This document shows, one piece after another, positions 8,122 through 46,181 of a stretch of DNA of 64,000 bases (its first letter is position 1; each line of letters starts with the position of its first letter). The notes beneath the pieces were generated by a model. That model made no database searches and was not told where the DNA came from. It worked only from the letters and a program-made list of their open reading frames with translations. Source of the DNA: Acidimicrobiales bacterium (GTDB lineage: Bacteria > Actinomycetota > Acidimicrobiia > Acidimicrobiales > SZUA-35); assembly GCA_965216655.1 (NCBI GenBank), contig CBDCGP010000005.1:83329-147328 (forward strand), in the 5' to 3' direction. The position numbers and the translations under genes are program-made.

Positions 8122-8156
8122 GGGTCGGTCGAGCCCTTCCCGGTCGAACGAACCCG

Positions 8157-10567: not shown

Positions 10568-10587
10568 GCGCGCTGAGCCGTGACGAG

Positions 10588-15408: not shown

Positions 15409-16296
15409 TCAGCGGTACCGGTGCTGAAGCCCGGTGATCTCGTCGAGTCCTATCAGGTCGGTGAAGTCGGCGAACGACGGAAGCGTGGCCTCCACGTCGA
15501 TCGGCGTGCCGGCCGCCTTCACCGCCGCCAGCGTCGACCTGATCGCACCGGTTGCGGCCAGTAGGACCGTGATCGGCATGATCACCAGGGCGAACCCGAG
15601 TTCGGCGAGTTCAGCGAACGACAGAGACGGTGACTTGCCCCCCTCGACCCAATTGTGGAGCAGGGGGGTGTCGCCGTACTCGGCCACGATCAGCTCGATC
15701 TCGTCCCGGGTCTGCAGCGCCTCGATGAACAAGACGTCGGCCCCCGCCTCCACCGCGGCGTCGGCCCGGCGCCGGGCCTCGTCGAGTCCCAGCGGGGCCC
15801 GGGCGTCGGTGCGGGCGATGATCAGGAAGTCGTCCGACGCCCGGGCATCGACGGCGGCCCGGATCTTGGCCGCGAACTCGGCGATCGGCACCACCTCCTT
15901 GCCCTCCATGTGGCCGCACCGCTTCGGCAGCACCTGATCCTCGAGGTGTATGGCCGCCACCCCGGCCCGCTCGTACTGCTGCACCGTGTGGACAACGTTG
16001 ATCGGATTGCCGTATCCCGTGTCGGCGTCGGCCACCAGCGGAACGTCGACCGCAGCGGCGATGCGGCGGGCGTTGTCGACCATCTCGGCCAGCCCCAGCA
16101 GACCGATGTCGGGGCGCCCCAGCAGAGAGGCCGCTGTTCCGAAGCCGGTCATGTACACACCGTCGAAGCCGGCCTGCTCGATCAACCGGGCGCCGAGGGC
16201 GTCATAGCAACCGGGCAGGAGAACCGGCCCGTCACCGGCCTCCATCAACCGGCGAAGACGATCGGGCGGCGCGGGCGACGACAAAAGATCAGCCAT
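15409..16296 (-). CDS. Isocitrate lyase/PEP mutase superfamily C-C lyase (methylisocitrate-lyase-like), copy 1
   Basis: 295-aa ORF. It contains DADTGYG and the lyase signature EDQVLPKRCGH. Confidence 0.8.
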   Translation of the reverse strand: MADLLSSPAPPDRLRRLMEAGDGPVLLPGCYDALGARLIEQAGFDGVYMTGFGTAASLLGRPDIGLLGLAEMVDNARRIAAAVDVPLVADADTGYGNPINVVHTVQQYERAGVAAIHLEDQVLPKRCGHMEGKEVVPIAEFAAKIRAAVDARASDDFLIIARTDARAPLGLDEARRRADAAVEAGADVLFIEALQTRDEIELIVAEYGDTPLLHNWVEGGKSPSLSFAELAELGFALVIMPITVLLAATGAIRSTLAAVKAAGTPIDVEATLPSFADFTDLIGLDEITGLQHRYR

Positions 16297-16369
16297 AGCG
16301 CCAATCTAGGACGGCCACTGCGGCCGGCGGCAACTTGAGCACCCTCCGAGGCCAACCTACACTGGCCCG

Positions 16370-17044
16370 GTGGCTGAGCCGGACTCCCGATCGGATTCGT
16401 TGGGAACGGCAGCCGGTGACGATCTGGCCGACGACTACCGGCAAGCCGGATTCGGTCAGGGGCTCGGAGTCGGCGACAAACTCGGCGTGCTGGTCGTCGA
16501 CGTGTGCCGGGCCTACGCCGATCCGCAGTCACCGCTGTTCGCCGACTGCCAACCGGCCTTCGACGCATGCGAGAACCTGGTCGGATCGGCCAGGGCCAAC
16601 GGCATTCCGGTGGTGTGGACCCGGGTTCGCTACCAACCCGGTGGCGCCGACGGCGGCCTGTTCTACCAGAAGGTCGGTGCGCTGTCGTGCTTCGACGAGG
16701 GAAACCCGTTCGGCGACTGGCTCGACGGGCTGGAGCCGGCCGCGGACGAGGTTGTGGTGACCAAACAATACGCCTCGTCGTTCTTCGGCACGTCGCTGGC
16801 GTCGTCGCTCAACACGGCGGGGATCGACACGCTGCTCATCTGCGGCGTGTCGACGTCGGGCTGCGTGAGGGCCAGCGCGCTCGACGCGCTCCAGCACGGC
16901 TTCCGCCCACTCGTCGTGGCCGACGCCTGCGGCGACCGCGACCAACGGGTGCACGACGCCAACCTGTTCGACCTCGGCGCCAAGTACGCCGACGTCATCG
17001 ACCTGCCGACGGCGGTTGAACTCACAAACCAGAAGGGGAATTGA
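16370..17044 (+). CDS. Isochorismatase-family cysteine hydrolase (N-carbamoylsarcosine-amidase-like), copy 1
   Basis: GTG start. It contains VLVVDVCRAY and the nucleophile region LLICGVSTSGCVRASALDA. Confidence 0.75.
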   Translation: MAEPDSRSDSLGTAAGDDLADDYRQAGFGQGLGVGDKLGVLVVDVCRAYADPQSPLFADCQPAFDACENLVGSARANGIPVVWTRVRYQPGGADGGLFYQKVGALSCFDEGNPFGDWLDGLEPAADEVVVTKQYASSFFGTSLASSLNTAGIDTLLICGVSTSGCVRASALDALQHGFRPLVVADACGDRDQRVHDANLFDLGAKYADVIDLPTAVELTNQKGN

Positions 17045-17045
17045 C

Positions 17046-18095
17046 ATGGACCTGGGAATCTTCATCCCGATCGGCAACAACGGGTGGATGATGTCGAAGA
17101 ACGCTCCGCAGTACATGCCGAGCTTCGAGCTCAACCGCACCACCGCCGAACGGGCGGAGGAGGCCGGCTACGACTTCCTGCTGTCGATGGTGAAGCTGCG
17201 GGGGTTCGGCGGCGACACCGAGTTCTGGGATCACAACCTCGAGTCGTTCAACCTGATGGCCGGACTGGCCGCCGTCACCAACGACATCCAACTCTTCGCC
17301 TCGGTGGCCCTGCCGACGTTGCATCCGGCCATGGTGGCCCGCATGGCCTCCACCATCGATGACATCTCCGACGGGCGGTTCGGCATCAACATCGTGTCCG
17401 GCTGGAACCAGAGCGAGTACGCCCAGATGGGGGTGTGGCCCGGCGACTGGTACTACGAGAAACGGTATGACTACGCCACCGAGTACGTCACCATCATGAA
17501 GGAGCTGTGGGCCACAGGGGTCAGCGACTTCAAGGGCGAGTACTTCCAGCTCGACGACTGCCGGCTGTCACCGCCACCTCGTGATGGCGCCGTGCCGCTC
17601 GTGTGCGCCGGCCAGTCGGATCGGGGCATGGAGTTCTGCGCCAACCACGGCGACTACCAGTTCATCATCGGCACCGGCGACCTCGACGTGGTCCGCACTG
17701 ATGCCGCCCGCCTCATGGCGGCTGCGGAGGAGAGCGGGCGGGACGTCGGCGTCTACGTGTTGTTCCAGATCACGATGGGCGAGACCGACGACGAGGCCGA
17801 GGCCAAGTGGCAGCACTACCGCGACGGGGCCGATCTGGAGGCCATCAAGTTCATGACCGGCCAGGCCGAACTCGACACGTCGGGCGCCACCGCCGAGAAG
17901 ATCACCGAGATGCAGGGGGCGTTCAACCTCAACATCGGCCCGATCGTCGGATCACACGCCACGATCGCGTCACGGCTCGACGAGGTGTCCGAGATCCCCG
18001 GGGTCAAAGGGGTGATGTGTGTGTTCGACGACTATCCGCCGGCCACGGCCGAGTTCGGGTCCGAGGTCATGCCCAAGATGGAGAGCCGGTCATGA
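17046..18095 (+). CDS. RutA-like flavin-dependent (LLM) monooxygenase
   Basis: The ATG at 17046 lies 1 nt after the upstream stop. It shows long collinear matches to E. coli RutA as I remember it (IPIGNNGW, APQYMP.FELN, SM(V/I)KLRGFGG.TEFWDHNLESF.LMAGLAAVT, DFKG, CAGQSD). Confidence 0.8.
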   Translation: MDLGIFIPIGNNGWMMSKNAPQYMPSFELNRTTAERAEEAGYDFLLSMVKLRGFGGDTEFWDHNLESFNLMAGLAAVTNDIQLFASVALPTLHPAMVARMASTIDDISDGRFGINIVSGWNQSEYAQMGVWPGDWYYEKRYDYATEYVTIMKELWATGVSDFKGEYFQLDDCRLSPPPRDGAVPLVCAGQSDRGMEFCANHGDYQFIIGTGDLDVVRTDAARLMAAAEESGRDVGVYVLFQITMGETDDEAEAKWQHYRDGADLEAIKFMTGQAELDTSGATAEKITEMQGAFNLNIGPIVGSHATIASRLDEVSEIPGVKGVMCVFDDYPPATAEFGSEVMPKMESRS

Positions 18096-18607
18096 CCGAC
18101 GAAACCGACGGGACCGACACCGTGGTTCGGACCGTGATCGGAAACCCGAATCCCGGCGGTCGCACCACCACCATCGGCGAGGCGGTGGCCGACGCCGTGG
18201 CCGATCTGATCGGCGGCAGTCGGGCCGACACCATCGAGCTGGCCGAGATCGGCCCCCACCTCTTCGAGTGGGGCAACGAGGACGTCAAGGCCCTCACGGA
18301 GGAGGTGGCGTCGAGCACGGTCAACGTGTTCGCCTGTCCCACTTACAAGGCGACCTACACCGGGCTGTTGAAGGCGTTCCTCGACAACTACAGCAACGAC
18401 GGATTGGCCGGCACGATCGCCGTGCCGGTGATGGTCGGCGCCACCCCCCGCCACGCGCTGGCCCCCGAGGTGCACCTGAGGCCGCTCCTCGTTGAGCTGG
18501 GAGCCTCGGTGCCCACTCGGGGGCTCTACGTTCTCGATTCGGAAATGGACGGACTGGGCGCCACGGTCGAGGCGTGGATCCAGGGTGTCGACGGTCAGCT
18601 CGGCTGA
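18092..18607 (+). CDS. NAD(P)H-dependent FMN reductase
   Basis: ATGA overlap with the monooxygenase gene. 171 aa with flavodoxin-like fold motifs (PNPGGRTT, CPTYKATYTGLLKAFLD). Confidence 0.7.
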   Translation: MTDETDGTDTVVRTVIGNPNPGGRTTTIGEAVADAVADLIGGSRADTIELAEIGPHLFEWGNEDVKALTEEVASSTVNVFACPTYKATYTGLLKAFLDNYSNDGLAGTIAVPVMVGATPRHALAPEVHLRPLLVELGASVPTRGLYVLDSEMDGLGATVEAWIQGVDGQLG

Positions 18608-18968: not shown

Positions 18969-19637
18969 CTACCCGTGCGACAGGTTCGTCCAGGCCTCGA
19001 GGATGCGGTCGGCCATCAAACGGTGTTCGCGGGCGATGCCCCGAAGCTCCCGGTTCTCGGTTCGACCGCCGATCGCCACCGCGCCGAACCGGTTACCCCG
19101 GAAGTAGGGCCACAGGTGATCCGGCTGGAAGAACCGGTCCAGGTCGCCCGGAACGTCGATTCCGGTGGGACCGCCGTCGGGCGGTTCGGCCAGGGCGGGA
19201 AGATCCAGCGCTTCGAGCGCCTCGATGACGTCGTCGTCGTGGGTCCGGTCGGCGAAGTCGCGGCCCCGGTAGCCGAAGGCCTCGTTGCCGCCCGGGTCGA
19301 TGACGAGCAGTGCCGGCAATGCGATACCGCCCCGTTCCTCGGGATCGAACAGGCCGAGCGGTTGCAGAAGGGTCTCACCACCGGGATCACTCACATAGCG
19401 GACGTGAGGCGTCGGCCACCGGGCGAACATGCCGGCCTGGCGAACCTCGTCGTCGACGCTGACCGCGATGACCTCGGCCCCGGCCGCGTGAATCCGCTCA
19501 CTGATGGATGCCAGCCGCACGAGCTGGCCGCAGCAATACGGTCACCAGTCACCCCGGTACGTCATCAGCAGCACCGCGCCACTGCCTCGACGTAGGTTCA
19601 ACACATCGTGACGGGCGGTGCTCTCTGATTCGTGCAT
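18969..19637 (-). CDS. Redoxin/peroxiredoxin-like (AhpC-TSA fold) selenoprotein, with in-frame UGA (Sec) at 19544-19542
   Basis: My own reverse-complement of 19501-19640 reads MHESESTARHDVLNLRRGSGAVLLMTYRGDW-TGA-PYCCGQLVRLASISERI. This continues into the 18969-19520 ORF. The UGA sits exactly where the W-C-P-x-C redox cysteine is expected. Confidence 0.75.
19510..19528 (-). promoter_or_regulatory. Candidate bacterial SECIS hairpin for the redoxin UGA
   Basis: The mRNA reads UGA, then 13 nt, then GCCAGC-UCGUGCG-GCUGGC. That is a 6-bp stem with a GU-containing loop about 19 nt after the UGA. Confidence 0.4.
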
Positions 19638-21566: not shown

Positions 21567-23072
21567 TTATGGCGTCCGATACCGGGGGCGAAACGCCAGG
21601 AGTGATTCGCCGAGACCTCCGGGTCGGCTGGAGCCGAGCCAGGCGGCGGCCTGGGCGTGGCGGACGGCCTCCACCTCGTCGGCGCCTACCGCCTCGCCAC
21701 GCAGATGGCGGAGCGCGAGCATGGCGGCGCTGCACGCCGCGGTCAGCTCGGCGGCGATGATGCGCCCCCGTTCGGTGGCGGGGCTGAGCTCGGGCCAGCG
21801 ACGGTTGGCGTCGGTCAACACTTCCATCGCCGCTCGGACCGCCTCGTCGTCGAGGTCGCCGACCACGGGGAACAGCACGTCGAAGACGGCGGCGCCCAGC
21901 GGTGTGCCGTTGGCCGTCCACGCACCGAGGTTCTCGCCAAGGTGTCCAACGCGGTCGAGCAGTGCACCGAATCCCGGCCGGGCACCGAGGAGATCGTCCA
22001 CGATCGAACCCACGTCGAGCCTGTTCTCACCGGGGCCGAGAACCGCGGCACCGTGCCACGCGGCGTGGGCGGCCCGGACGATCGACGGCACCGACACCAC
22101 CAATGGTTGCCAGTGACCGTGGTCGCCCCAGTCACAGAGCATCATCGCACGGGCGCCACGTCGGGTGCCGACCGCCACCGCGTCGGCGATGTTGGCCGCG
22201 GCGTTGGCGTTGCGACCGATCAACGTGGCCCACGACGAGGTTCCGGCCGCCACCCGGAACGGCACCGCGGCATCGACCAGCAGTCGAACATGGGCCTCGA
22301 ACCCGTCAGCGGCGTCGTCGGGCAACCCGAGACGGTCCTCGAACGCGGCCGGCAGCAGACCTCGCCAGCTGCGGCCCGGAGCCTCGTAGTTCCAGCCAAC
22401 GACGGTCACCCCGTCGGGCACCCACTCCACCGCCTCGGCATCCCGGCGGAACTGGTCACCCCAGATCATCACCTCGAGGCCGTCGGCCACCAGCGGTTCG
22501 ATGATGCGCCGGAGATGTGCTCGATAGACGACGCCTCGGCCGAGACGGTCGACTTGCGCCCGGGATCGGCCAAGGCCCAACTCGAACGGTTCGTCGCCGC
22601 CGATCATGACGCGACCGGCGCCGGTAGCCTCGACCAGCCGGCGGGCCAGGCCAATGGCGAAGTCGGCGTTGTCGGCCGTCGGCGCCAGACACGACGGCGG
22701 AGCTGTGCCATCGCCCACCAGCGAGGGATATCCATCGGGACACTCGGCCCGATCCCGGTACCGATCATGGGCCAGCCATCGCTCCATGTGCCCGAAGCAG
22801 TTGAGGCTGGGGACCAGCTCGATACCGGCGTCGGCCGCCCGCCGCCGGAGCCAGGCCATGTCGTCGCCGGTGAGGGCCGATGCGTCGGCCCACACGGTCT
22901 CGTGCCCGGGGTGGGCAAAGGTGTGTTCGATGTAGAGGTGAAGTTCGGTGTAGCGCAGGCGGCCCAGGAGATCGATGAGCCAACCGAGCGTGTCGAGGGT
23001 CGGTACCCGATCCCTCGACACGTCGAGCTGGAATGCCCGCCGGGTCAGGACCGGATCACCGTTGAAGTCCAT
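21567..23072 (-). CDS. GH20-like (beta-N-acetylhexosaminidase catalytic-domain family) protein, no signal peptide
   Basis: 501 aa. It contains RAFQLDVSRD, YTELHLYIEHTF, VPSLNCFGHM and the adjacent D-E pair in MIGGDEPFE. The start lies 15 nt after the selD stop. Confidence 0.7.
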   Translation of the reverse strand: MDFNGDPVLTRRAFQLDVSRDRVPTLDTLGWLIDLLGRLRYTELHLYIEHTFAHPGHETVWADASALTGDDMAWLRRRAADAGIELVPSLNCFGHMERWLAHDRYRDRAECPDGYPSLVGDGTAPPSCLAPTADNADFAIGLARRLVEATGAGRVMIGGDEPFELGLGRSRAQVDRLGRGVVYRAHLRRIIEPLVADGLEVMIWGDQFRRDAEAVEWVPDGVTVVGWNYEAPGRSWRGLLPAAFEDRLGLPDDAADGFEAHVRLLVDAAVPFRVAAGTSSWATLIGRNANAAANIADAVAVGTRRGARAMMLCDWGDHGHWQPLVVSVPSIVRAAHAAWHGAAVLGPGENRLDVGSIVDDLLGARPGFGALLDRVGHLGENLGAWTANGTPLGAAVFDVLFPVVGDLDDEAVRAAMEVLTDANRRWPELSPATERGRIIAAELTAACSAAMLALRHLRGEAVGADEVEAVRHAQAAAWLGSSRPGGLGESLLAFRPRYRTP

Positions 23073-23087
23073 CGGGGCCGGATGCCG

Positions 23088-24131
23088 TCAGGCCAGTTTG
23101 AACAACGGTTCGCCTTCAGAGATCGAGCCGATCCTGGCCGCCGTGTGGCCACTGTCGGCCAAAGCCCCCAGCACCGACTCGGTTTCACCGGGGTCGACGC
23201 CGAACACCAGCCCGCCCGAGGTCTGGGCATCGGCGATCAACAGCTGCGATCGCTCGTCGTGGGAGCCGGGGTCGAGCAGCTCAGCACCCCACGCCAGGTT
23301 GCGCCGGCTGCCTCCCGGCACCATACCTTCGGCCGCCAGATCGGCGGCCCCGGGCAGGAACGGAACGGCGTCGAACTCGACCGTCACCCGGACCTGGGAC
23401 TCCACGGCCATCCGCCCGAGGTGGCCGAGCAGGCCGAACCCGGTGACGTCGGTGCAGCCGGTCGCCCCGGCCTCGACGGCCACCCGGGAGGCGACGTCGT
23501 TGATCCGGGTCATCGAGGCGATGGCCGCCTCGGCCACCTCCGCCGGCGCGACATCGGCCTTGATGGCGGTGGTGATGACGCCGACACCGAGTGGTTTGGT
23601 CAGGATCAGATCCTGGCCCGGCTGAAGGCCGGCGTTGGTGAGGATCCGATCGGGGTGGACCTCCCCGGTGACCGACATGCCGTACTTGGGTTCCGGGTCG
23701 TCGATGGTGTGACCGCCCACGATGGCGAACCCGGCGGCGGTGGCGATGTCCTGGCCGCCGGCGAGGAGTTCACCGAGGAGCGAGGTGGGGAGCGCGTCGG
23801 TGTTCCAGCCCACCAGGTTCAGCGCGAACAGGGGGCGGCCACCCATGGCGTAGACGTCGGAGACGCTGTTGGCCGCGGCCACCCGGCCCCACGTGCGAGC
23901 GTCGTCGACGACGGGGGTGATGAAATCGGCGGTCGAGATGAGGGCCCGGTTGTCGTCCAGTTTCCAGACGGCGGCGTCGTCACCGGTGTCGGTGCCGACC
24001 AGGAGTTCGGCCGGTTGGTCGGGGTGCAGGTCGCGCACGACGTGCGCGAGCTCGCCGGGGGCGAGCTTGCAGCCTCAACCGGCGCCGTGGCTGAACTGGG
24101 TGAGACGGTGGGTCACGTGTTCGTCGGTCAC
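23088..24131 (-). CDS. selD: Selenophosphate synthetase (SelD/SenC), Sec-containing, with in-frame UGA at 24077-24075
   Basis: The track ORF (23088-24038) is clearly SelD (GTDTGDDAAVW, AANSVSDVYAMGG). Extending upstream in frame gives VTDEHVTHRLTQFSHGAG-TGA-GCKLAPGELAHVVRDLH. This equals the E. coli LTQYSHGAGCGCKI loop with Sec in place of Cys17. GTG start at 24131. Confidence 0.9.
24033..24067 (-). promoter_or_regulatory. Candidate SECIS region for the selD UGA (two adjacent hairpins)
   Basis: The mRNA downstream of the UGA carries AGCUCGCC-ccc-GGCGAGCU (24067-24049) and GCGCAC-guc-GUGCGC (24047-24033). Confidence 0.4.
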
Positions 24132-24172
24132 AGCATTCAGGCTAGCCAGGCCGGCACTGGTACGGTTTTTCC

Positions 24173-25471
24173 ATGGCACTGGAGACCTGGGTCGACAGCG
24201 ACGATCTTGCCGAGTGGGTGCAGGACGCCACCGAGTATCTGATCGGAACCGTGGCCGATTTCGACCACGACGACGAGCGCTGGATGGGCCCGTATCTGCC
24301 GATAGTCAACCCGCCCATCTGGGAGCTGGCCCATGTCGGCTGGTTCGCCGAGTGGTTCGTGCTCCGCCAGTTGCACGGTCGCGATCCGCTCATGGAGAAC
24401 GTCGACGAACGCTACGACTCGGCGTTGGTGGCCCACAAGACCCGATGGCAGCTCGACTACCCCGACTCGGCCCGCACCATCGACTACGTCCGCCGGGTGG
24501 CCGACGGGTTGGTCGACGTCGTCGGCAACGACGGCGGCCTCGACTCCACCGCCTACTACGTCGCCTACGCCGTCATGCATCACGACGCCCATTGCGAGGC
24601 GCTCACCTACACCCGCCAGACCCTCGATTGGGGGCCACGCCCCGGCGGCTCCGCGTCTGAACCGGTCACCGGGGAACCGATCTCCGGCGATCGACGGGTG
24701 GGCGGCGGTCGGGTCCTCCTCGGGGCGTCCCGGAAGCAGCCCTTCGTCATGGACAACGAGAAGTGGGCCCACCCGGTGCAGGTCGACGAGTTCGATCTGG
24801 CTGTCGCCCCGGTCACCGTGGCCGATTTCGCAGCCTTCGTCGACGACGGCGGTTATGGCAACGACACCGTGTGGTCACCCGACGGCCTGACCTGGCGCCA
24901 TGATACCGGCGCCACCGAACCGGCGTACTGGCGCCGTGGCGCCGATGGCTGGGAACGCCGCATCGGTGCCGACTGGCAGCCGATCGCCGACACCGCCGAC
25001 CATCCGATGGTGCACGTCAGCTGGTGGGAGGCCGAGGCCTGGTGCACCTGGGCCGGGCGGCGGCTGCCCACCGAGGCCGAGTGGGAGGCGGCCGCCACCA
25101 CCACGCCGTCGGGCGAACGGCTTCCCTGGTTCCCGTGGGGCGGACGGGATCCGCTCCCCTCCGAGGCGGCGCTCGACGGCCGGACCGGCGGCACCGTACC
25201 GGTCGGAGCCTTCGGAGCCGGCGACGGTCCGTGGGGCCACCGGCAGCTCATCGGCAACGTCTGGGAGTGGACGGCCACCACGTTCGGCCCGTATCCCCAC
25301 TTCGAGCCCGACGCCTACCGCGACAACTCCGAGCCGTGGTTCGGCACCCGCAAGGTGCTGCGGGGCGGATCGTGGGCCACCCGCAACCGCTACGTGCGGT
25401 CGACCTACCGCAACTACTTCACCCCTGACCGGCGCGACGTCTACGCCGGATTCCGCACCTGCCCACGGTGA
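24173..25471 (+). CDS. senA: EgtB-like DinB_2 + FGE-sulfatase-domain C-S/C-Se bond-forming enzyme; SenA-type (selenoneine synthase) by context
   Basis: 432 aa. The N-terminal DinB-like part has WELAHVGWFAEWF and VMHHDAHCEAL. The C-terminal FGE part has HPMVHVSWWEAEAWCTWAGRRLPTEAEWE, GNVWEWT and RGGSW. It is divergent from selD and followed by a GT-B gene. No egtA/C/D neighbours. Confidence 0.7.
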   Translation: MALETWVDSDDLAEWVQDATEYLIGTVADFDHDDERWMGPYLPIVNPPIWELAHVGWFAEWFVLRQLHGRDPLMENVDERYDSALVAHKTRWQLDYPDSARTIDYVRRVADGLVDVVGNDGGLDSTAYYVAYAVMHHDAHCEALTYTRQTLDWGPRPGGSASEPVTGEPISGDRRVGGGRVLLGASRKQPFVMDNEKWAHPVQVDEFDLAVAPVTVADFAAFVDDGGYGNDTVWSPDGLTWRHDTGATEPAYWRRGADGWERRIGADWQPIADTADHPMVHVSWWEAEAWCTWAGRRLPTEAEWEAAATTTPSGERLPWFPWGGRDPLPSEAALDGRTGGTVPVGAFGAGDGPWGHRQLIGNVWEWTATTFGPYPHFEPDAYRDNSEPWFGTRKVLRGGSWATRNRYVRSTYRNYFTPDRRDVYAGFRTCPR

Positions 25472-25508
25472 CCACCAGCCGGCCCGTTCGCCCGGCGGTC
25501 GCAGTGAC

Positions 25509-26511
25509 GTGAGCGGTCGCTCCATCGTCATCGCCGCCCCGATCCGGCCGACGGCCCGGTCGGGCAACGACGTGACCGCCGGTCGTTGGGCTGATCATCT
25601 CGAGCGGCTCGGCCACCACGTCACGGTCGTGGCGGCCGACGAGCAGGCCGACCGGCCCGACGAGGAGACGGCTGCGCTGCTCGACGCCGCCGACATGCTG
25701 ATCGCCATCCATGCCCGGCGGTCCGCTCCGGTCATTGCCTGGTGGGCCGACCGGCATCCGGACCGACCGGTCGTCGTCGCCCTCAGCGGAACCGACCTCT
25801 ACGGTGATTTGCCGACCAGCGATGGCGCAGTGGCCTCGGTGGAGCGCGCCTCGGCACTCATCGTGCTCCAGCGGGCGGCGGCGGAGCGAGTGGCCGGCCT
25901 GAGGGCCGAGTGGGGTGACAAGACCACGGTGATCCATCAGTCGGTGGCGCCGCCGTTGCCGCCCCGCCGACCGGCGGACGACGAGCTCAGGGTCGTGGTG
26001 CTGGCCCATCTCCGGTCGGTCAAGGACCCGCTGTTGACGGCAAGGGCGGCCCGACACCTCGACCCGGCGAGCCGGGTCACCGTCCACCACGCGGGACAGG
26101 CCTTCGACCGGCGATGGGAGGAGGAGGCGATCGAGGAGCAGGCCGCCAACCCCCGCTACCACTGGCACCGCGAACTCGACCGGGACGCCGCACTCGAACT
26201 GCTCGCCACCGGTCGCGCCCTGGCCTGCACGTCGCTGACCGAGGGAGGCGCCAACGTCGTCACCGAAGCCATTGGCCCTCGGCGTGCCCGTCATCGGCAC
26301 CCGGATCGACGGCAACACCGGGTTGCTGGGTCATGACTACCCCGGGCTGATACCGGTCCGCGATGTGGAGGCCATGGCCGACCTGCTGCGTCGCCTCGAA
26401 ACCGATCCCCTGCTGTTGGCCGAGCTGCAGCGCCGCACCAATGAGCTGAAACCCATCACCGACCCGGCCGCCGAGCGGGCCGGTCTGGCCGCGGTGCTCG
26501 CCTCCCTCTGA
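25509..26511 (+). CDS. senB: GT-B glycosyltransferase, SenB-type (selenosugar synthase) by context; split by a 1-nt frameshift near 26275 as assembled
   Basis: GTG 25509 lies 38 nt after senA. Frame 1 reads up to ...TEGGANVVTEAI. Frame 2 (26272 ORF) continues ALGVPVIGTRIDGNTGLLG, restoring the canonical GT-B motif E-A-x-A-x-G-x-P-V. Removing one G (26274-75) or one C (26276-78) repairs the frame. Confidence 0.65.
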
Positions 26512-28233
26512 TCAGCGGATGGATCGGCGAATCGCGGCCGACGCGAAATCGACGGCCACGGTGACCACGAACAGCGCCACGATGGTGGCCAGAATGCCGT
26601 CGTAGTTGAACGACGCCGTCTGTTCGTCGAGGCGGCGGCCGAGGCCGGCGGCGCCGACGACGCCCACGATGACCGTCTCCCGGATCGCCACCTCCCACCG
26701 GTAGAGACCGAGGGCGACGAACCGTCCGGCCACCGCAGGCACGGTGGCCAGTGTGAACGACCCGGCGGCGGTGGCCCCGGTGGCGGCCAGGATCCGGGCC
26801 GGGCGTTGGTCATGGTTCTCCAGCACCTCGCCTTGGAGCCGACCCAGCACGCCTGTGTTGTAGACCGCCAGCGCCACGGCCCCGGGCCACAGTCCGGGAA
26901 ACAGCACGAAGACCGTGATGAAGGCCCACACCGGCGGCGGCACCGAGCGGGCCACGAGCAGGACGAACCGGACGATGGCGGCCAGTGCGCTGCGGACCGC
27001 CGCCCCCACACCGGACGCCGCCCGGCGGGGGCGTTGGGCGACGAAGGCCACAGGAGACGCCATGGCGAAAGCCAGGCCGATCGACAGGATGGCCAAGGCG
27101 ATGGTGTCGAGCGAGTCGTCGACGAGTTCCCGCAAACCGCCCGCGCCGATCTCGGGAGGCCAGCTGTCCTCAACCAGTTCGCCGGCCAGCAGCCGGGCCC
27201 GGTCGTCCCACAACGTCGAGACGTCGATGCCGAGCCGCCAGTAGGCGATCGGCAGCGAAACGGTGAGCAGCAGCGCGCTGAAGCGCAGGAACCGGTCGTT
27301 GTTCGGACGGCCGTTGGTCCGGGTGGTCCGCGTGGCCGGGGAGGCCAGGCTGGAGCCGGTGGTCTCGGCCACCGAAACGTGGGTCTCGGCGGCCAGGGCG
27401 TTGCGCCGCCGCCGGACCGCCGATGACCAACGGTCGGCGATACCGGACAGGATGATGAGCGCCCACAGCAGGGTCCACATCTCGTCATAGCGCAGCGATT
27501 GGAATGAGAGCGCCAGCTGGAATCCGAGTCCGCCGGCCCCGACGATCCCGAGCACGGCGGCGCTGCGAAGGCTGCACTCGAAGCGGTAGAACGCGTACGA
27601 GAGCAGGTCGCTCAGCGCCTGGGGGATGGTGGCGAAGGTGAGGGCGACGACCCGGCCGGCACCGGCGGCTCGCATGGAACGCTCGGCGTCACCGGACACC
27701 TCGTCGATCAGTTCGGCGAAGACCTTGGCGGTGACCGCGCCGAACGGGATGCCGATGGCCAGCACGGCGACAAGGGGGTTGAGACCGAGGATGTTGACGA
27801 GGATCAGTCCGAACACGACCTCGTGCATCGAGCGGGGGATGACCATCAGGGTCCGGCCGACCATCCAGCCGAGCCGACCACGGCCCATCGTGCCGTGGAT
27901 CGGCGTCCAGATCCGTTCGGTGAGCAGCGGGCCGAACACCATGCCGATGGCCACGGCCAGCGCGGTGCCCAGGAGCGCATAGCCCACCGTCACCGCCGAC
28001 TCCCGCAGGGTCAGCTCCAGCATTTCGGCGCTGAGGTCGGGGCGGACCATGGCGGCGAAGAAGGCGGTGACCTGCGACCAGCCCCGTTCGTTGATCAGCT
28101 CGGAGGGATCGGCGCCGGCCTTGGCCACCGACCAGGCCACCAGTCCGGCGACGACGGCCGCCCACCATCGCCGGTCCCGCCGCACCGGGCGCTGCGCGAT
28201 GACGACCGGGCGACGTTCGAGAACGGTCGTCAC
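26512..28233 (-). CDS. phnE: Phosphonate-type ABC transporter permease (fused double PhnE)
   Basis: 573 aa, made of two PhnE-like halves. It is convergent and abutting senB. GTGA-type overlap with phnC. Confidence 0.85.
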   Translation of the reverse strand: MTTVLERRPVVIAQRPVRRDRRWWAAVVAGLVAWSVAKAGADPSELINERGWSQVTAFFAAMVRPDLSAEMLELTLRESAVTVGYALLGTALAVAIGMVFGPLLTERIWTPIHGTMGRGRLGWMVGRTLMVIPRSMHEVVFGLILVNILGLNPLVAVLAIGIPFGAVTAKVFAELIDEVSGDAERSMRAAGAGRVVALTFATIPQALSDLLSYAFYRFECSLRSAAVLGIVGAGGLGFQLALSFQSLRYDEMWTLLWALIILSGIADRWSSAVRRRRNALAAETHVSVAETTGSSLASPATRTTRTNGRPNNDRFLRFSALLLTVSLPIAYWRLGIDVSTLWDDRARLLAGELVEDSWPPEIGAGGLRELVDDSLDTIALAILSIGLAFAMASPVAFVAQRPRRAASGVGAAVRSALAAIVRFVLLVARSVPPPVWAFITVFVLFPGLWPGAVALAVYNTGVLGRLQGEVLENHDQRPARILAATGATAAGSFTLATVPAVAGRFVALGLYRWEVAIRETVIVGVVGAAGLGRRLDEQTASFNYDGILATIVALFVVTVAVDFASAAIRRSIR

Positions 28234-28988
28234 GCCGGAGTGGGCTGGTCGAGCAGGTAGAGCTCGGTCAGCATCGCCTCGTCGACCTCGGCCGCCGGCA
28301 GATCGAAGTGCAGCCGGCCGTCACGGAGGGCGACGATGCGGTCGCAATGCCGGAGGGCCAGGGGGGCGTCGTGCATGCTGGCGACCATCCCCCGCCCGGC
28401 TTGTCGGGCCATGCGGGCCAGCACCGTCATCACCGCGTCGGACCGGGAGGGGTCGAGCGCACTGACCGGTTCGTCGGCCAGCAACAGGTCGGGCTCCTGG
28501 AACAGGGCGCGGGCGATGGCCGTCCGCTGTTGCTGGCCGCCGGAGAGTTGGTCGGCCCGCTCCCACAGCTTCTCGGCGATGCCGACGGAGTCGAGCGCGG
28601 CCGAGATCTCGTCGATCGGGGTGGGGCGGACGAGAGCCCGAGCGGCTCTGGCCCACGACCAGCGTCCCAACCGGCCGGCGGCCACGTTGCTCGCCACCCG
28701 CAGCGGCCCGACGAGCGCGAAGTCCTGGCTGATCAGCCCGATCCGGCTGCGATGGTGGCGGTGGGATCGACGGCCGAGCGCGGTGCTGTCCACGCCGAGC
28801 ACCTCGACCCGCCCGGCGCTGGGCAGCACGAGCCCGGCGGCCAGCGACAACACGGTTGACTTGCCGGCGCCCGACGGGCCGACCAGCGCGACCAGCTCAC
28901 CGGCGGCGACCGACAGCGTGAGCCCGTCGACCGCCGCCGGGTCGGAACCGGGATACTGCACGGTGACGTCGTCGAACCGGACGAGCAC
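28230..28988 (-). CDS. phnC: Phosphonate-type ABC transporter ATP-binding protein
   Basis: 252 aa. It has Walker A (GPSGAGKST), the signature LSGGQQQR, Walker B (LLLADEP) and a PhnC-like insert region. Confidence 0.9.
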
Positions 28989-28995
28989 GTTTTTC

Positions 28996-30044
28996 TCAGC
29001 CCTCGATGCTGCCGATCTCCCGGCCGACGGCCTCGATGCTGGCGTAATTGTCGTTGCTGGTCTCGATGAACGACCCGGCGCCGAAGAATTCGAGGATCTC
29101 GGCCTCTTCGGGATTGGACGGATCGAGCGAGGTGAAGGCCTCGATGACCGACGTCGTCAGATCGTCACCGAGCTCGGGGCGGGCCACCCAGTGGTAGTCG
29201 AAGTAGGTCGGGGTCTCGAAGATGACCTGAACCTTCTCGAGGTTGACCTCACCGGCTTCGACCCGGGCGTCCCACACCTGCGAATTGAGGGCACCGACCT
29301 CGAAGGTTCCGGCCTCGACCAGTTCGATGGTGGCGTCATGGGAGCCGCTGAACCCGGGCTCCCCGTCGAGGTCGTCGAGGCTGACCCCGGCGTCGCTGAG
29401 GAACGACTGGGGCATGAGCCGTCCGGATGTGCTCGACTCCGAGCCGAACGTCAGTGTGCGACCGGCGATGGCGCTCAAACCGGCCACGTCGTCGAATGGG
29501 TTCGATGCCGGTGTCGGTGCCGGCGATGAACACCGAGGTGAACTCCTCGTCGATGTCACGCTGGGCGATGGCATCAGCGCCGTCGACCTGCAGCCGAGCC
29601 TGAACACCGGTGAGCCCGCCGAACCAGACGAGGTCGAGATCGCCGACCCGGAAGGCGGTGACGGCGGCGTCGTACTCGGTGACCGGCTCGAAGCGAACCT
29701 CGACCCCCGGTCTCGGCGGCCAGGTAGTCGGCCACCAGCTGGTAGTTGCGGGCCAGGACCTCGGGGTCCTGATCGGGGATGGCCCCGATAACCAGCTCGC
29801 CGTCGAAGTCACCGGCGTCTTCGGCGGCGTCGCCGGCCTCGTCGCTTTCATCGGCTGCGTCGTCGGTTGTTTCTTCCGAGGTGTCGTCGGCGTCGGCGTC
29901 GTCAGCCGCTTCGGTGGTATCCGACGCTGCGGTGGTCTCGGATGACTCGCCGGCCTCGGTCGAGTCGTCGTCGGAGCCACAGGCTGCGGCCAGGAATGCC
30001 AACAGCACGAGGGGAACGAGAAAACGAAGATTGATGTGGCGCAT
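28996..30044 (-). pseudogene. phnD: PhnD-type periplasmic binding lipoprotein, interrupted by two 1-nt frameshifts as assembled
   Basis: Three collinear frames. Frame A: MRHINLRF..LAAACGSDDD..GELVIGAIPDQDPEVLARNYQLVADYLAAETG. Frame B: VEVRFEPVTEYDAAVTAFRVGDLDLVWFGGLTGVQA...[11 protein letters not shown]. Frame C: [25 protein letters not shown]...[11 protein letters not shown]. The shifts are at the C5 run 29704-29708 and the GGG run 29498-29500. Confidence 0.75.
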
Positions 30045-30719: not shown

Positions 30720-32638
30720 CTACGACGACAACGAGGCGGCGGCCTTTCGGGCCTTGGCCGCACGGGCCCGTACGATCGGGTCGAGTTCGACCTTGCGGAG
30801 GCGGATCTCGTCGGGGGTCACCTCCACGCATTCGTCGTCGCCGATGAACTCGAGCGCCTGCTCCAACGACAACTCCCGCGGCGGCGACAGCTTCACCGTG
30901 GCGTCGGCCGCGGCGGCCCGGTGATTGGTGAGCTGCTTTCTCCTTGCCAGACGTTGACGTCCATGTCCTCGGCCCGGCTGTTCTCCCCCACGATCATGCC
31001 GCAGTACACCTCGGTGCCGGGCGGTATCAGCATCTGGGCCCGCTCCTGCAGACCGAGCATGGCGTACGTCGTGGCGGGACCCCGACGGTCGGCCACCATG
31101 GAGCCCGAGCGGCGGGTGCGGATCTCCCCGAACCACGGCTCGAAGCCATCCATCGACTGATTGACCACGCCGGTGCCGCGGGTCTCGGTCAGGAACTCGG
31201 TGCGGAAACCGATCAGACCACGGGCCGGAACCAGGTAGTCGAGCCGCACCCACCCCGTGCCGTGGTTGACCATCTGGTCCATCCGCCCCTTCCGGCCCGC
31301 CAACAGCTGGGTCACCGCGCCGAGGTGCTCCTCCGGTACATCGATGATCACCCGCTCGACGGGCTCGTGGACGGCGCCGTCGATCTCCCGGGTCACCACC
31401 TGCGGTTTGCCGACCGTCAGCTCGAACCCCTCTCGCCGCATCGTCTCCACCAGCACCGCGAGCTGGAGTTCCCCACGGGCCTGGACCTCCCACACGTCCG
31501 GCTTCTCGGTGCCGAGCACACGGAGGCTCATGTTGCCGACCAGCTCGGCGTCGAGCCGTCCCTTGACCAGGCGGGCGGTCAGCTTCGACCCGGACTGACC
31601 GGCCAGCGGCGACGAATTGACACCGATCGTCATCGACAATGACGGCTCGTCGACCTCGATCACCGGCATCGGACGGGGATCGTCGGCGTCGACCAAGGTC
31701 TCACCGATGAGAATGTCGTCGATGCCGGCCACGGCCACCAGATCTCCGGGACCGGCCTCGTCGGCCGACACCCGCTCCAACGCCTCGGTCAGGTACAGCT
31801 CGGCGATCTTCACCCGGTCGACCGTGCCGTCGATCCGACTCAAGCCGACCGACGCGCCCCGCCGTATAGTGCCGTTCATCATGCGACACAACGCCAGGCG
31901 ACCGACGTAGGGGCTGACGTCGAGGTTCGTCACCCAGGCCTGGAGGGGATGGCCCTCGGTGTAGATCGGGGCGGGAACGACCTCGACGATCGCCTCGAAC
32001 AGTGGGGTCAGGTCGGCTCCGCCGGCAGCGCCACCAACCGGGGAGGAGTCACCGGCGACCAGCTCATCCACGGCGTCGAGGTCCGTGGTGGCCCAACCGG
32101 TGCGGGCCGCGCAGTAGAGGATCGGAAAGTCGATCTGGTCATCCCGGGCATCGATATCGAGGAACAGCTCGTAGACCTCGTCGACCACCTCCTTGGCCCG
32201 GGCGTCACCCCGGTCGACCTTGTTGACGACCAGGATCACCGGGAGGTCGAGGGCGAGCGCCTTGCGCAGCACGAAACGGGTCTGGGGCAGCGGACCCTCG
32301 GCGGCGTCGACCAGGAGCACGATCCCGTCGACCATCGTCAACGCCCGCTCGACCTCGCCGCCGAAGTCGGCGTGGCCGGGGGTGTCGACGATGTTGAACG
32401 TGAGGTCACCCCACCGCACCGACGTGTTCTTGGCCAGGATGGTGATGCCCTTCTCCCGCTCGAGGTCGCCGGAATCCATCACCCGGTCGGCGACGTCCTC
32501 ATTCGCCCGGAACACGCCGGTCTGACGGAGCATGGCGTCGACGAGCGTGGTCTTGCCGTGATCGACGTGGGCCACGATGGCCACATTGCGCAGGTCGGAC
32601 CGGCGGCTCTCAGGTTGTGGTTCACGGCCAGCGGCCAT
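30720..32638 (-). CDS. typA: Translational GTPase TypA/BipA; 1-nt frameshift near 30937-30939 as assembled
   Basis: ATG 32638. The N-terminus carries [18 protein letters not shown] and [12 protein letters not shown]. The frame is lost after DMDVNV. The C-terminus ([42 protein letters not shown]) lies in the 30720 ORF. Adding one A to the AAA run restores WQGEKQLTN. Confidence 0.85.
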
Positions 32639-32770
32639 ATGGCGGTTCCTCTCACGAACCAATGCGACCAGACAACGATAGGGCCTCCCGCCGATGCGAC
32701 CTACGTTGGGCCTCGACGCCACCCCGGCGCCGGAAGTACTCTGGATGAACAGCGTCCGTTGGAGGTCGAC

Positions 32771-33380
32771 ATGGCCGCCCGCCCAACCCCGGTGGAAGTA
32801 TTCGGGGTCGGATCCGACGGCGAGTTGATACCGCTCACCCCCGGATCCTCCCCCGGCGACGACACGGCATCGGCGCGGACCGACGCCGACCGGGCGTGGA
32901 TCCTCGGTCCGCTGGATGAGCTGGGCGGCATCGGCGGCGAGTCGGACGACGGCGCCGGGGGCTTGCCGTCGTACCAGGCCCGCAAGGCCCACCGACCGGG
33001 CGGGTTCGGCGACCGACCGACCAGAACCGGCGGACGCGAGGACGTGGTGGCGCCGGTGCACGTGCTGCCGGGACCGGCCAGCCGGGCACTGCACGCCGGC
33101 GACCTGTTCCGCGAACCGCTGCCCGGTCTCGTCGTCGACATCGACAGCCTCGAGGTCGATTCGAGGGGATCGACCTGGTCGGCCACCGTGACCTGCCGGG
33201 GATTCGGCGCAACCACCGTAAGGCGACGCTTCGGGCCTACCCGTCGCCGTCGGCCAACCTCACGGTGCTCGAACTCGTACCCACCAGGCGGCGGCTGGTT
33301 CAGACGAGGGCGTTCGTGAAGGCCGGGGTGCCGGCCATCGCCACCCTCTGCTCGCGTATCAGCCGGACGGCCCGGACCTG
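32771..33380 (+). CDS. Hypothetical protein, possibly frameshifted near 33190
   Basis: ATG 32771 has a GGAGG SD 5 nt upstream, inside the tail of the 31949 ORF. After ...STWSATV the listed frame turns Arg/Pro-rich. The adjacent frame reads DLPGIRRNHRKATLRAYPSPSANLTVLELVPTRRRLVQTRAFVKAGVPAIATL and stops at 33378-33380. Confidence 0.3.
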
Positions 33381-46180: not shown

Positions 46181-46181
46181 G

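What the first reader, a model, noticed from the sequence alone, without database searches (positions are those of the whole stretch)
23088..26511. SenC/SenA/SenB-type selenometabolite (selenoneine-like) gene cluster, hidden by a UGA and a frameshift
- **What the sequence shows:** a selenophosphate synthetase gene (23088-24131, minus) faces an EgtB-like DinB_2 + FGE-sulfatase gene (24173-25471, plus) across only about 41 bp. A GT-B glycosyltransferase (25509-26511) follows 38 nt later.
- **Established knowledge:** ergothioneine EgtB normally sits with egtA/C/D/E. The trio of SelD paralogue, unusual glycosyltransferase and EgtB homologue is the signature of the selenoneine pathway. In that pathway SenC makes selenophosphate, SenB makes a selenosugar from a UDP-sugar, and SenA couples it to hercynine (Kayrouz et al., Nature 2022).
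- **Inference:** this locus makes selenoneine or a related C-Se natural product. No EgtD-like histidine methyltransferase is in the window, so the acceptor (hercynine or another imidazole/thiol scaffold, for example an ovoselenol-type route) is open.
- **Why it is easy to miss:** standard ORF calling truncates selD at its UGA and splits the GT in two.
Basis: partly seen in the sequence, partly recalled or inferred. Interest (0 to 1): 0.9.

Follow-up and report, generated by a model that had tools for sequence, protein, structure and literature searches.

The report
Selenoneine (sen) gene cluster, Acidimicrobiia
This is a recognisable copy of the known bacterial gene cluster that makes the selenium antioxidant selenoneine, sitting next to a putative selenium uptake transporter; the stop codon inside one gene encodes selenocysteine, and the frameshift in another is most likely a sequencing error.

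Summary
selD lies at 23088-24131 (-) with an in-frame TGA at 24075-24077. A DinB/FGE-sulfatase gene lies at 24173-25471 (+). A GT-B glycosyltransferase lies at 25509-26511 (+), broken by one extra base at 26274-26278.

The three proteins pass NCBI's curated cut-offs for SelD, SenA (449 bits against 420; EgtB model fails, 289 against 360) and, after removing the extra base, SenB (309 against 300). The SenA active-site motif is hercynine-type, not ovoselenol-type. The one exception is Tyr to Asn, shared by an actinobacterial clade that nests inside SenA.

The locus is larger than reported. A PhnE/PhnC-like ABC transporter and a TIGR04553 "putative selenate" binding protein follow at 26512-30044 (-).

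The TGA is conserved in relatives, followed by conserved hairpins with compensatory changes, so it most likely encodes selenocysteine.

All five frame breaks in 26.27-30.95 kb, two of them in housekeeping typA, are +1 insertions in short homopolymers. They are probably assembly errors.

The 2022 sen paper already describes the cassette, the nearby selenate transporter and egtD lying elsewhere. This is a new member of a known kind, of modest interest.

The parts
23088..24131 (-). selD/senC: selenophosphate synthetase, 347 codons, with selenocysteine (TGA) at codon 19
   Evidence: With U read as C it scores TIGR00476 380.4 bits (cut-off 125) and NF002098 365.5 bits (cut-off 299). It is 81-84% identical to the selD genes at the sen loci L001-L004.
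24075..24077 (-). In-frame TGA at the catalytic Sec/Cys position (SHGAG-U-GCK)
   Evidence: The same TGA is present in six Acidimicrobiia relatives and in four more distant sen-linked selD genes.
24032..24067 (-). Two tandem hairpins directly after the TGA, a candidate SECIS. Hairpin 1 is 24049-24067. Hairpin 2 is 24032-24048 with a GUC loop.
   Evidence: The fold has z = -4.5 against shuffles. Both hairpins are conserved in 7 sequences. Hairpin 2 has 2 compensatory pairs and no broken pair. Cys-type selD genes lack a comparable hairpin. There is no Rfam match.
24132..24172 (.). 41-nt divergent intergenic region between the selD and senA starts
   Evidence: The consensus scan finds no sigma-70-like promoter. 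The transcripts may be leaderless; this is an inference.
24173..25471 (+). senA: non-heme-iron selenoxide synthase (DinB_2 + FGE-sulfatase), 432 aa
   Evidence: NF041186 SenA scores 449.2 bits (cut-off 420). EgtB TIGR03440 scores 288.7 bits (cut-off 360). The composite motif is NEH/HR/HAH/Y-N-N-Y-F-R. It nests inside the SenA radiation.
25509..26511 (+). senB: selenosugar synthase (GT-B/GT4), interrupted by one extra base
   Evidence: The repaired protein scores TIGR04348 309.4 bits (cut-off 300). Its best PDB matches are the SenB structures 8K5U, 8JJN and 8FBX. N20, T23, R155/V157/K158, E231 and E239 are all present.
26274..26278 (+). +1 insertion in the run GGCCC that shifts the senB frame just after the E-x7-E motif
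   Evidence: Relatives L001-L004 and L051 have an uninterrupted senB.
26512..28233 (-). Fused double PhnE-type ABC permease, 573 aa
   Evidence: TIGR01097 PhnE scores 321.7 bits in 2 stretches. It gives a single full-length alignment to the L001 permease at 69% identity.
28230..28988 (-). PhnC-like ABC ATPase, 252 aa
   Evidence: TIGR02315 scores 220 bits, below its cut-off of 266, so this is family-level similarity only. It is 73% identical to the L001 ATPase.
28996..30044 (-). Lipoprotein substrate-binding protein of the TIGR04553 'putative selenate ABC transporter' family, split over three frames by two +1 insertions (G run at 29704-29708, C run at 29498-29500)
   Evidence: tblastn with the L001 and L003 binding proteins hits three frames. 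The repaired protein scores TIGR04553 332.6 bits (cut-off 250).

Best explanation
A six-gene selenium locus of an uncultured Acidimicrobiia bacterium (Actinomycetota) that takes up selenium and makes selenoneine by the published sen route.

The proposed steps are:
1. The TIGR04553-type ABC transporter imports an inorganic selenium oxyanion. This step is inferred; the family's substrate is only putative.
2. The selenocysteine-containing SelD makes selenophosphate.
3. SenB couples selenophosphate to a UDP-sugar, probably UDP-GlcNAc, and cleaves the Se-P bond to give a 1-seleno-sugar.
4. SenA, an Fe(II)/O2 enzyme, joins the selenosugar to C2 of hercynine.
5. The selenoxide eliminates the sugar spontaneously to give selenoneine.

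Hercynine must come from an EgtD encoded outside the window. Because the selD is a canonical SelD and is itself a selenoprotein, it probably also serves selenocysteine synthesis.

What is shown here is family membership, active-site residues, gene order, and conservation of the TGA and its hairpins. The chemistry is inferred from characterised homologues.

The frame breaks in senB and in the binding-protein gene are most likely consensus errors of the assembly.
For: - Curated HMM cut-offs are passed for SelD, SenA and SenB and for the TIGR04553 binding protein.
- SenA has the iron triad and the SenA/OvsA-type N-E-H and H-R selenosugar positions. It also has the hercynine-type Asn414-Tyr415-Phe416, matching N(F/Y)(F/Y), rather than the Q-A of OvsA.
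- In a 78-locus NJ tree the window's actinobacterial clade is monophyletic in 99/100 bootstraps and lies inside SenA. OvsA groups elsewhere.
- SenB keeps N20, T23, K158, E231 and E239.
- The same gene order occurs in L001, L003, L004 and L051. The same six components occur in Haloechinothrix (L006).
- Across 83 loci, senB is next to senA in 71, selD is present in 24, and a TIGR04553-like binding protein in 11.
- The TGA is conserved, with hairpins carrying compensatory changes.
- A second TGA-containing redox gene lies 3.5 kb away.
- The literature reports the sen cassette, a nearby selenate transporter, egtD usually elsewhere, and selenoneine production by an actinomycete.
- All five frame breaks are +1 homopolymer insertions, two of them 8-11 nt apart in typA.
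Against: - senB and the binding-protein gene are not intact in the sequence as given.
- The five insertions cluster in 4.7 kb rather than being spread over the window. That could also reflect local decay.
- The SenA motif departs from the published SenA rule at one position (Tyr366 to Asn).
- No egtD, selA, selB or tRNA-Sec is in the 64 kb. The hercynine supply and the Sec machinery are therefore assumed.
- No Rfam SECIS model matches.
- The PhnC-like ATPase is below its equivalog cut-off.
- No product has been measured.
Confidence: 0.8

Rival explanations
1. The locus is a real sen cluster that is decaying. On this reading the +1 insertions in senB and in the selenate-type binding protein are genuine mutations, so the strain no longer makes selenosugar or selenoneine through these genes.
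For: There are three frame breaks within the six-gene locus. All five breaks lie in 26.27-30.95 kb, and none was found in the other roughly 59 kb. The senB break falls right after the E-x7-E motif and would remove about 90 C-terminal residues.
Against: Two of the five insertions lie 8-11 nt apart in housekeeping typA. All five are the same kind of event, +1 in a run of 2-5 identical bases, and there are no deletions or substitutive stops. selD, senA, the permease and the ATPase are intact and highly similar to relatives. Coding signal (GC3, codon usage) continues unchanged across the breaks.
Confidence: 0.17
2. The NHISS enzyme is not a hercynine-using SenA. It selenylates histidine or another imidazole (ovoselenol-type or a new selenometabolite), as suggested by the absence of egtD and by OvsA being the top PDB hit.
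For: phmmer against the PDB ranks OvsA (270 bits) above Variovorax paradoxus SenA (233 bits). A three-reference NJ tree put OvsA next to the window clade in 156/200 bootstraps. The Tyr366-equivalent residue is Asn, so the strict published SenA motif is not matched. No egtD is in the window.
Against: - The higher OvsA score arises because V. paradoxus SenA lacks window residues about 314-360. Identity is 42% to SenA and 39% to OvsA.
- With 78 loci, OvsA groups with a Halomonas SenA-like sequence and is the direct sister of the window clade in only 11/100 bootstraps.
- The OvsA-defining M/Q/A residues are N/N/Y here. Q-to-N plus A-to-F are two of the three changes (with M401Y) that convert OvsA to hercynine use.
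- No OvsM-like methyltransferase is in the window.
- The same Asn variant occurs in Haloechinothrix, which is in the same family as Amycolatopsis palatopharyngis, a shown selenoneine producer.
- sen clusters usually lack egtD.
Confidence: 0.04
3. The gene is an ordinary ergothioneine EgtB that happens to sit beside selD and an unrelated GT4 glycosyltransferase.
For: It has the same DinB_2 + FGE-sulfatase architecture and 35% identity to M. thermoresistibile EgtB.
Against: The EgtB model scores 288.7 bits against a cut-off of 360, while the SenA model passes. The EgtB-I thiol-binding positions S-D and R-R are N-E and H-R here. The glycosyltransferase passes the SenB equivalog. senA-senB adjacency recurs in 71 of 83 loci. 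No egtA, egtC or egtD is nearby.
Confidence: 0.01

Closest known systems
sen cluster (senA-senB-senC) of Variovorax paradoxus DSM 30034 and Amycolatopsis palatopharyngis (Kayrouz et al. 2022, preprint 10.1101/2022.04.13.486033)
   Same: The same three enzyme families are adjacent to one another. SenB catalytic residues are conserved, and the SenA selenosugar- and hercynine-binding positions are conserved. A putative selenate transporter nearby and egtD elsewhere are both described for sen clusters in that paper.
   Different: - The selD is a canonical, selenocysteine-containing SelD, 35-37% identical to the proteobacterial 'MRCGGCGAK' SenC type.
- SenA carries Asn instead of Tyr366 and Ala instead of Met at the variable position.
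- SenA keeps a roughly 47-residue segment that V. paradoxus SenA lacks.
- SenB has EGGANV instead of EGGAHV.
- selD is divergent from senAB.
sen loci of uncultured Acidimicrobiia MAGs (L001 GCA_039029735.1, L003/L004, L051) and Haloechinothrix aidingensis (L006)
   Same: The six components are the same, and in the Acidimicrobiia loci the order and orientation are the same too. The same TGA in selD and the same SenA Asn variant are present. SenA is 68-77% identical and SelD 80-84% identical. NCBI names these proteins SenA.
   Different: Those loci have uninterrupted senB and binding-protein genes. Haloechinothrix selD has Cys, not Sec. L002 lacks the transporter.
ovs (ovoselenol) cluster: OvsA/OvsM plus senB/senC, Halomonas utahensis and Marinobacter (Kayrouz et al. 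2024, PMC11030361)
   Same: It uses the same selenosugar cassette (SenB plus a SelD homologue) and an NHISS of the SenA lineage. OvsA is the best single PDB match.
   Different: The OvsA histidine-binding residues M401/Q430/A431 are N/N/Y here. No OvsM methyltransferase is present. The window enzyme is in a different clade.
Ergothioneine EgtB-I (Mycobacterium thermoresistibile, PDB 4X8B) in egtABCDE
   Same: Same fold, iron triad, catalytic Tyr, and an Asn-aromatic pair for the hercynine trimethylammonium group.
   Different: The thiol-binding residues are replaced by the SenA-type N-E and H-R. It scores below the EgtB cut-off. There are no egtA/C/D neighbours.

Membership tests
SenA (selenoneine synthase, NHISS) | Scores at or above the curated cut-off of NCBIfam NF041186 and better than the EgtB and OvoA models | tested here: met
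   SenA 449.2 bits against a cut-off of 420. EgtB 288.7 against 360. OvoA N-terminal model 122.5 against 400.
SenA (selenoneine synthase, NHISS) | Three-His iron site and catalytic Tyr | tested here: met
   H54, H136, H140 and Y382 align with the ligands and the Tyr of SenA, OvsA and EgtB. H54, H140 and Y382 were counted and are invariant in all homologues that cover the column; H136 was read from the pairwise alignments only.
SenA (selenoneine synthase, NHISS) | Selenosugar-side positions N-E and H-R (S-D and R-R in EgtB-I) | tested here: met
   N46, E51, H88 and R91.
SenA (selenoneine synthase, NHISS) | Hercynine-binding Asn395 and the aromatic 396/397 pair, N(F/Y)(F/Y) | tested here: met
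   N414-Y415-F416. All 120 close homologues have Asn, and all have F or Y at the next position.
SenA (selenoneine synthase, NHISS) | Tyr at the Tyr366 position of the published composite motif | tested here: not met
   The residue is Asn385, as in 106 of 120 close homologues and in all 9 actinobacterial loci. In V. paradoxus SenA this residue contacts the substrate through its backbone carbonyl. I therefore treat this as a clade variant, not an exclusion.
SenA (selenoneine synthase, NHISS) | Phylogenetic position inside the SenA radiation | tested here: met
   In an NJ tree of 78 loci plus references, the clade is monophyletic in 99/100 bootstraps and nested among canonical-motif SenA sequences. 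The method is distance-based only.
SenB (TIGR04348 selenosugar synthase) | Scores at or above the TIGR04348 cut-off and keeps the catalytic residues N20/T23/K158/E231/E239 | tested here: met
   309.4 bits against a cut-off of 300, after removing one base. The residues were read from the alignment to 8K5U and from the paper. H235 of the EGGAHV motif is Asn.
SenB (TIGR04348 selenosugar synthase) | Uninterrupted reading frame | tested here: not met
   There is a +1 insertion at 26274-26278. It is judged a probable assembly error because of identical events in typA.
SelD / SenC (selenophosphate synthetase) | SelD equivalog score and Sec or Cys in the G-x-G-(U/C)-G-C-K loop | tested here: met
   TIGR00476 380.4 bits against 125. 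NF002098 365.5 bits against 299. TGA is in SHGAG-U-GCK.
SelD / SenC (selenophosphate synthetase) | Bacterial SECIS hairpin downstream of the UGA | tested here: inconclusive
   Hairpins are conserved, with 2 compensatory pairs in hairpin 2, and are absent from Cys forms. However, only 7 sequences were compared, there is no Rfam match, and SelB binding is untested.
sen biosynthetic gene cluster | senA, senB and selD co-localised | tested here: met
   All three lie within 3.4 kb. The same arrangement is found in relatives.
sen biosynthetic gene cluster | EgtD (hercynine supply) present in the genome | not testable with these tools
   No Methyltransf_33/EgtD hit in window ORFs of 200 aa or more. 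The rest of the 227.5-kb contig and the genome could not be retrieved.
sen biosynthetic gene cluster | Selenoneine produced | not testable with these tools
   This needs culture or heterologous expression with LC-MS.
OvsA / ovs (ovoselenol) cluster | Composite motif ...Y-M-Q-A-Y-R and an OvsM N-pi-methyltransferase | tested here: not met
   The window has Y-N-N-Y-F-R. No methyltransferase domain was found in the window. OvsA is not sister to the window clade.
EgtB-I (ergothioneine sulfoxide synthase) | TIGR03440 cut-off and the motif S-D-H / R-R / H-Q-H / N-W-D | tested here: not met
   288.7 bits against a cut-off of 360. The motif is N-E-H / H-R / H-A-H / N-Y-F.
TIGR04553 putative selenate ABC transporter | Binding protein at or above the TIGR04553 cut-off, with PhnE/PhnC-type partners | tested here: met
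   The repaired binding protein scores 332.6 bits against 250. PhnE scores 321.7 against 216.7. The PhnC-like ATPase scores 220 against 266, below its cut-off. The family's substrate is itself only putative.

The most novel reading that the evidence does not exclude
The actinobacterial SenA clade differs from canonical SenA in three ways. It has Asn for Tyr366, Ala or Thr for Met at the variable iron-site position, and an extra segment of about 47 residues. It would fall outside the strict published SenA motif and into that paper's 'Other' class. It might therefore use an acceptor other than hercynine, or give a different regiochemistry, and so produce an undescribed selenometabolite in Acidimicrobiia.
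Probability: 0.05. Interest if true: 0.7.

Novelty: new member of a known kind. Interest (0 to 1): 0.25.

Why it matters
The locus adds an uncultured Acidimicrobiia lineage to the organisms predicted to make selenoneine. It shows a compact uptake-activation-biosynthesis arrangement in which the selenophosphate synthetase is itself a selenoprotein.

On the practical side, it shows two ways such loci are lost in automatic annotation: truncation of selD at UGA, and homopolymer indels in MAG assemblies. It does not reveal new chemistry or a new kind of system. The cassette, the transporter neighbour and the missing egtD are all already published, and curated HMMs name these genes.

Tried and rejected
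- **Rfam.** A gathering-threshold scan of the whole window and a permissive scan around the TGA found no SECIS or other RNA family. ARAGORN found no tRNA, so no tRNA-Sec is in the window.
- **Source contig.** An exact look-up of the window's SenA failed twice. The database nonetheless holds the identical protein on a 227.5-kb contig. The rest of the contig could therefore not be searched for egtD, selA or selB.
- **Three-reference tree.** A tree with only OvsA, V. paradoxus SenA and EgtB as references suggested that OvsA was sister to the window clade. I rejected it as a sampling artefact once 78 loci were included.
- **OvsA as top PDB hit.** This is explained by a deletion in V. paradoxus SenA, not by closer kinship.
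- **Promoter and terminator scan.** No promoter-like site was found, and terminator-like sites were at the chance level.
- **GH20-like gene.** I considered that the 501-aa GH20-like gene downstream of selD might belong to the pathway, for example by recycling the 2-acetamidoglucal by-product. I set this aside. The Pfam hit is below threshold and the gene is not conserved next to selD in relatives.
- **EgtE-like gene.** The class-V aminotransferase at 9994-11763 is far below the EgtE cut-off and sits among tyrosine-catabolism genes.
- **Redoxin hairpin.** The hairpin after the redoxin TGA is not more stable than shuffles.


Full report
**1. Observation**

The window is high-GC, 63-70%. The closest relatives of its genes are uncultured Acidimicrobiia, in the phylum Actinomycetota.

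On the minus strand, an ORF runs from 24038 to 23088. It continues upstream in the same frame through a TGA at 24077-24075 to a GTG at 24131. The full reading is MTDEHVTHRLTQFSHGAG-*-GCKLAPGEL.... The TGA therefore sits exactly at the Sec/Cys position of the SelD glycine-rich loop.

senA starts with ATG at 24173, 41 nt away on the plus strand, and ends at 25471 (432 aa). A GTG at 25509 opens a glycosyltransferase frame. That frame runs into an out-of-frame tail at about 26275 and is continued in another frame to 26511.

**2. Family assignment**

Scores against NCBIfam:

| Protein | Model | Bits | Cut-off |
|---|---|---|---|
| SelD (U read as C) | TIGR00476 | 380.4 | 125 |
| SelD (U read as C) | NF002098 | 365.5 | 299 |
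| 432-aa protein | SenA NF041186 | 449.2 | 420 |
| 432-aa protein | EgtB TIGR03440 | 288.7 | 360 |
| 432-aa protein | OvoA N-terminal model | 122.5 | 400 |
| Glycosyltransferase, one base removed | SenB TIGR04348 | 309.4 | 300 |

Pfam gives the expected domains: AIRS/AIRS_C, DinB_2 (weak) plus FGE-sulfatase, and Glycos_transf_1.

The best solved-structure matches of the glycosyltransferase are the SenB structures 8K5U, 8JJN/8JJQ and 8FBX. In that alignment the residues shown by mutagenesis to matter are all present. These are N20, T23, K158 (with R155 and V157), E231 and E239. H235 of the EGGAHV motif is Asn, as it also is in relative L001.

**3. SenA, OvsA or EgtB?**

phmmer against the PDB ranks OvsA (8UX5/8U41, 270/265 bits) above Variovorax paradoxus SenA (8K5I, 233 bits) and EgtB (4X8B, 213 bits). 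This had to be resolved, because OvsA makes 5-selenohistidine on the way to ovoselenol, not selenoneine.

The alignments show that V. paradoxus SenA simply lacks window residues about 314-360, which splits its match into two pieces. Identity is 42% to SenA and 39% to OvsA.

Kayrouz et al. classify these enzymes by a 17-position composite motif:
- SenA: xNEH--HRHxHYYN(F/Y)(F/Y)R
- OvsA: xNEH--HRHxHYMQAYR
- EgtB-I: xSDH--RRHQHYYNWDR

The window protein reads N-E-H / H-R / H-A-H / Y-N-N-Y-F-R. It has the SenA/OvsA-type selenosugar positions. It also has the hercynine-type Asn-aromatic pair. In OvsA, the changes Q430N and A431F, together with M401Y, convert the enzyme to hercynine use and C2 selenylation.

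The only departure from the SenA rule is Asn at the Tyr366 position. In V. paradoxus SenA, that residue acts through its backbone carbonyl. The Asn is shared by:
- 106 of 120 close homologues;
- all nine actinobacterial loci, including Haloechinothrix aidingensis. Haloechinothrix is in the same family as Amycolatopsis palatopharyngis, a demonstrated selenoneine producer.

A tree with only three references placed OvsA beside the window clade. With 78 loci, the actinobacterial clade is monophyletic in 99/100 bootstraps and nested in the SenA radiation. OvsA then groups with a Halomonas sequence and is the clade's direct sister in only 11/100.

I conclude that the enzyme is a SenA of an actinobacterial sub-clade and that its acceptor is most probably hercynine.

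**4. The locus is larger than reported**

Directly after senB, on the minus strand, lie three more genes:
- a fused double PhnE-type permease at 26512-28233 (TIGR01097, 321.7 bits);
- a PhnC-like ATPase at 28230-28988 (220 bits, below its equivalog cut-off of 266.1);
- a lipoprotein binding protein at 28996-30044.

The binding protein belongs to TIGR04553, "putative selenate ABC transporter substrate-binding protein". The intact L001 orthologue scores 329.8 bits. The window protein, with two extra bases removed, scores 332.6 bits. The cut-off is 250.

The same transporter follows senB in L001, L003, L004 and L051. It accompanies sen genes in Haloechinothrix, Dehalococcoidia, Alphaproteobacteria and a Cytophagia MAG, 11 of 83 loci in all.

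The 2022 preprint already notes a putative selenate transporter near many sen clusters. It also notes that hercynine is normally taken from an egt pathway encoded elsewhere.

**5. The TGA**

- The same TGA is present in the selD of all six Acidimicrobiia relatives and in four more distant sen-linked selD genes. Other sen-linked selD genes have Cys.
- Two tandem hairpins follow the TGA, at 24049-24067 and 24032-24048. The window sequence folds with z = -4.5.
- In seven sequences, hairpin 2 keeps all seven pairs, has two compensatory CG-to-GC exchanges, and has a GUN loop.
- Cys-type selD genes show no comparable hairpin.
- No Rfam family matches, so I call this a candidate SECIS.
- PGAP-style annotation of L001 and L002 reads through the TGA, giving a 346-aa product. 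The public record for the window's own contig holds the 316-aa truncated product.
- A second in-frame TGA lies 3.5 kb away in an AhpC/TSA-fold gene, in the motif W-U-P-Y-C. This is consistent with an organism that decodes Sec.

The window contains no tRNA and no selA or selB.

**6. The frameshifts**

Comparison with relatives locates the breaks:
- one in senB, in the run GGCCC at 26274-26278;
- two in the binding-protein gene, in a G5 run at 29704-29708 and a CCC run at 29498-29500.

The next gene, typA, passes the TypA equivalog but loses its C-terminus. The cause is two single-base insertions 8-11 nt apart, gtctgGcaaggagaaAgcag. Removing them restores the conserved ...NVCKEKQLTNHR....

All five events are +1 insertions that lengthen a short homopolymer. 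I found none in the remaining roughly 59 kb, either by frame-score segmentation or by domain coverage.

A housekeeping gene carrying two such events side by side, and the uniform signature of all five, point to local consensus errors. I put this at about 0.7-0.8. Genuine decay of senB and the transporter is the alternative. Only the reads can decide between them.

**7. Mechanism**

Shown here:
- family membership and active-site residues;
- gene order;
- conservation of the TGA and its hairpins.

Inferred from characterised homologues:
1. SelD makes selenophosphate.
2. SenB forms the C-Se glycosidic bond with a UDP-sugar, and K158 promotes Se-P cleavage.
3. SenA oxidatively couples the selenosugar to C2 of hercynine.
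4. The selenoxide eliminates 2-acetamidoglucal to give selenoneine.

Speculative:
- The transporter imports selenate or selenite.
- The single canonical SelD serves both Sec synthesis and selenoneine.

**8. Novelty**

The cassette, the transporter neighbour, the absence of egtD and production by an actinomycete are all published. NCBI's pipeline already names close relatives "selenoneine synthase SenA". This is a new member of a known kind.

The minor new points are:
- the clade-wide Tyr-to-Asn variant of SenA in Actinomycetota;
- the use of a Sec-containing canonical SelD at the sen locus in Acidimicrobiia and Dehalococcoidia.

Interest is modest, at 0.25.

Noticed in passing
window 18969-19637 (-), TGA at 19542-19544: An AhpC/TSA (redoxin)-fold gene has an in-frame TGA in the motif YRGDW-*-PYCCGQL, that is UxxC in place of CxxC. 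With U read as C, the Pfam AhpC-TSA hit extends across the TGA and rises from 27.5 to 49.1 bits. The best NCBIfam hit is a weak one to 'SelL-related redox protein'. This is a candidate selenoprotein. The downstream hairpin is not better than shuffles.
   Followed up: partly
window 30893-33094 (-), insertions at 30947-30948 and 30937-30939: typA/bipA passes the TypA equivalog (791 bits) but loses its C-terminal roughly 60 residues. The cause is two +1 homopolymer insertions 8-11 nt apart, and the conserved C-terminus continues in another frame. This is the best evidence that this part of the assembly carries indel errors.
   Followed up: yes
window 21567-23072 (-): A 501-aa ORF starts 16 nt downstream of selD on the same strand, so it may be co-transcribed. 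It has GH20-like motifs (LDVSR, GGDE) but only a sub-threshold Pfam GH20 hit (E = 0.003). It is not conserved next to selD in relatives, where a cytochrome P450 or CopC sits instead.
   Followed up: partly
window 7003-11763 (+): A run of tyrosine/homogentisate-type catabolic genes: HPPD-like, fumarylacetoacetase, a weak HgmA-like cupin, and then a class-V aminotransferase. The aminotransferase's best NCBIfam hit is EgtE (174 bits, far below the cut-off of 400). It is probably not an ergothioneine gene.
   Followed up: partly
window 15409-18607 and 45506-47530: Two separate gene pairs of a PEP-mutase/isocitrate-lyase-family protein with an isochorismatase-family protein. The first is followed by a luciferase-like monooxygenase and an FMN reductase. 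The second is followed by aconitase-like large and small subunits. Function not examined.
   Followed up: no
L001 6243-7523 and L002 7538-8857: A cytochrome P450 lies immediately beside selD in two Acidimicrobiia sen loci but not in the window. L002 also has an FGE-sulfatase-only protein, TauD, an FMO and a methyltransferase upstream.
   Followed up: no
L039, L041, L052, L053 (selD next to senA): Sen-linked selD genes in Dehalococcoidia, an Acidobacteriota MAG and an unclassified bacterium also carry TGA, in the motif (C/T)(A/C)G-U-A-x-K, each with its own downstream hairpin. L053 shares hairpin 2 of the window with a compensatory change.
   Followed up: partly
window 58375-59942 (-): Two tandem Asp/Glu/hydantoin-racemase-family genes. 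The overlapping long ORFs first looked like a frameshift but are two separate genes.
   Followed up: yes
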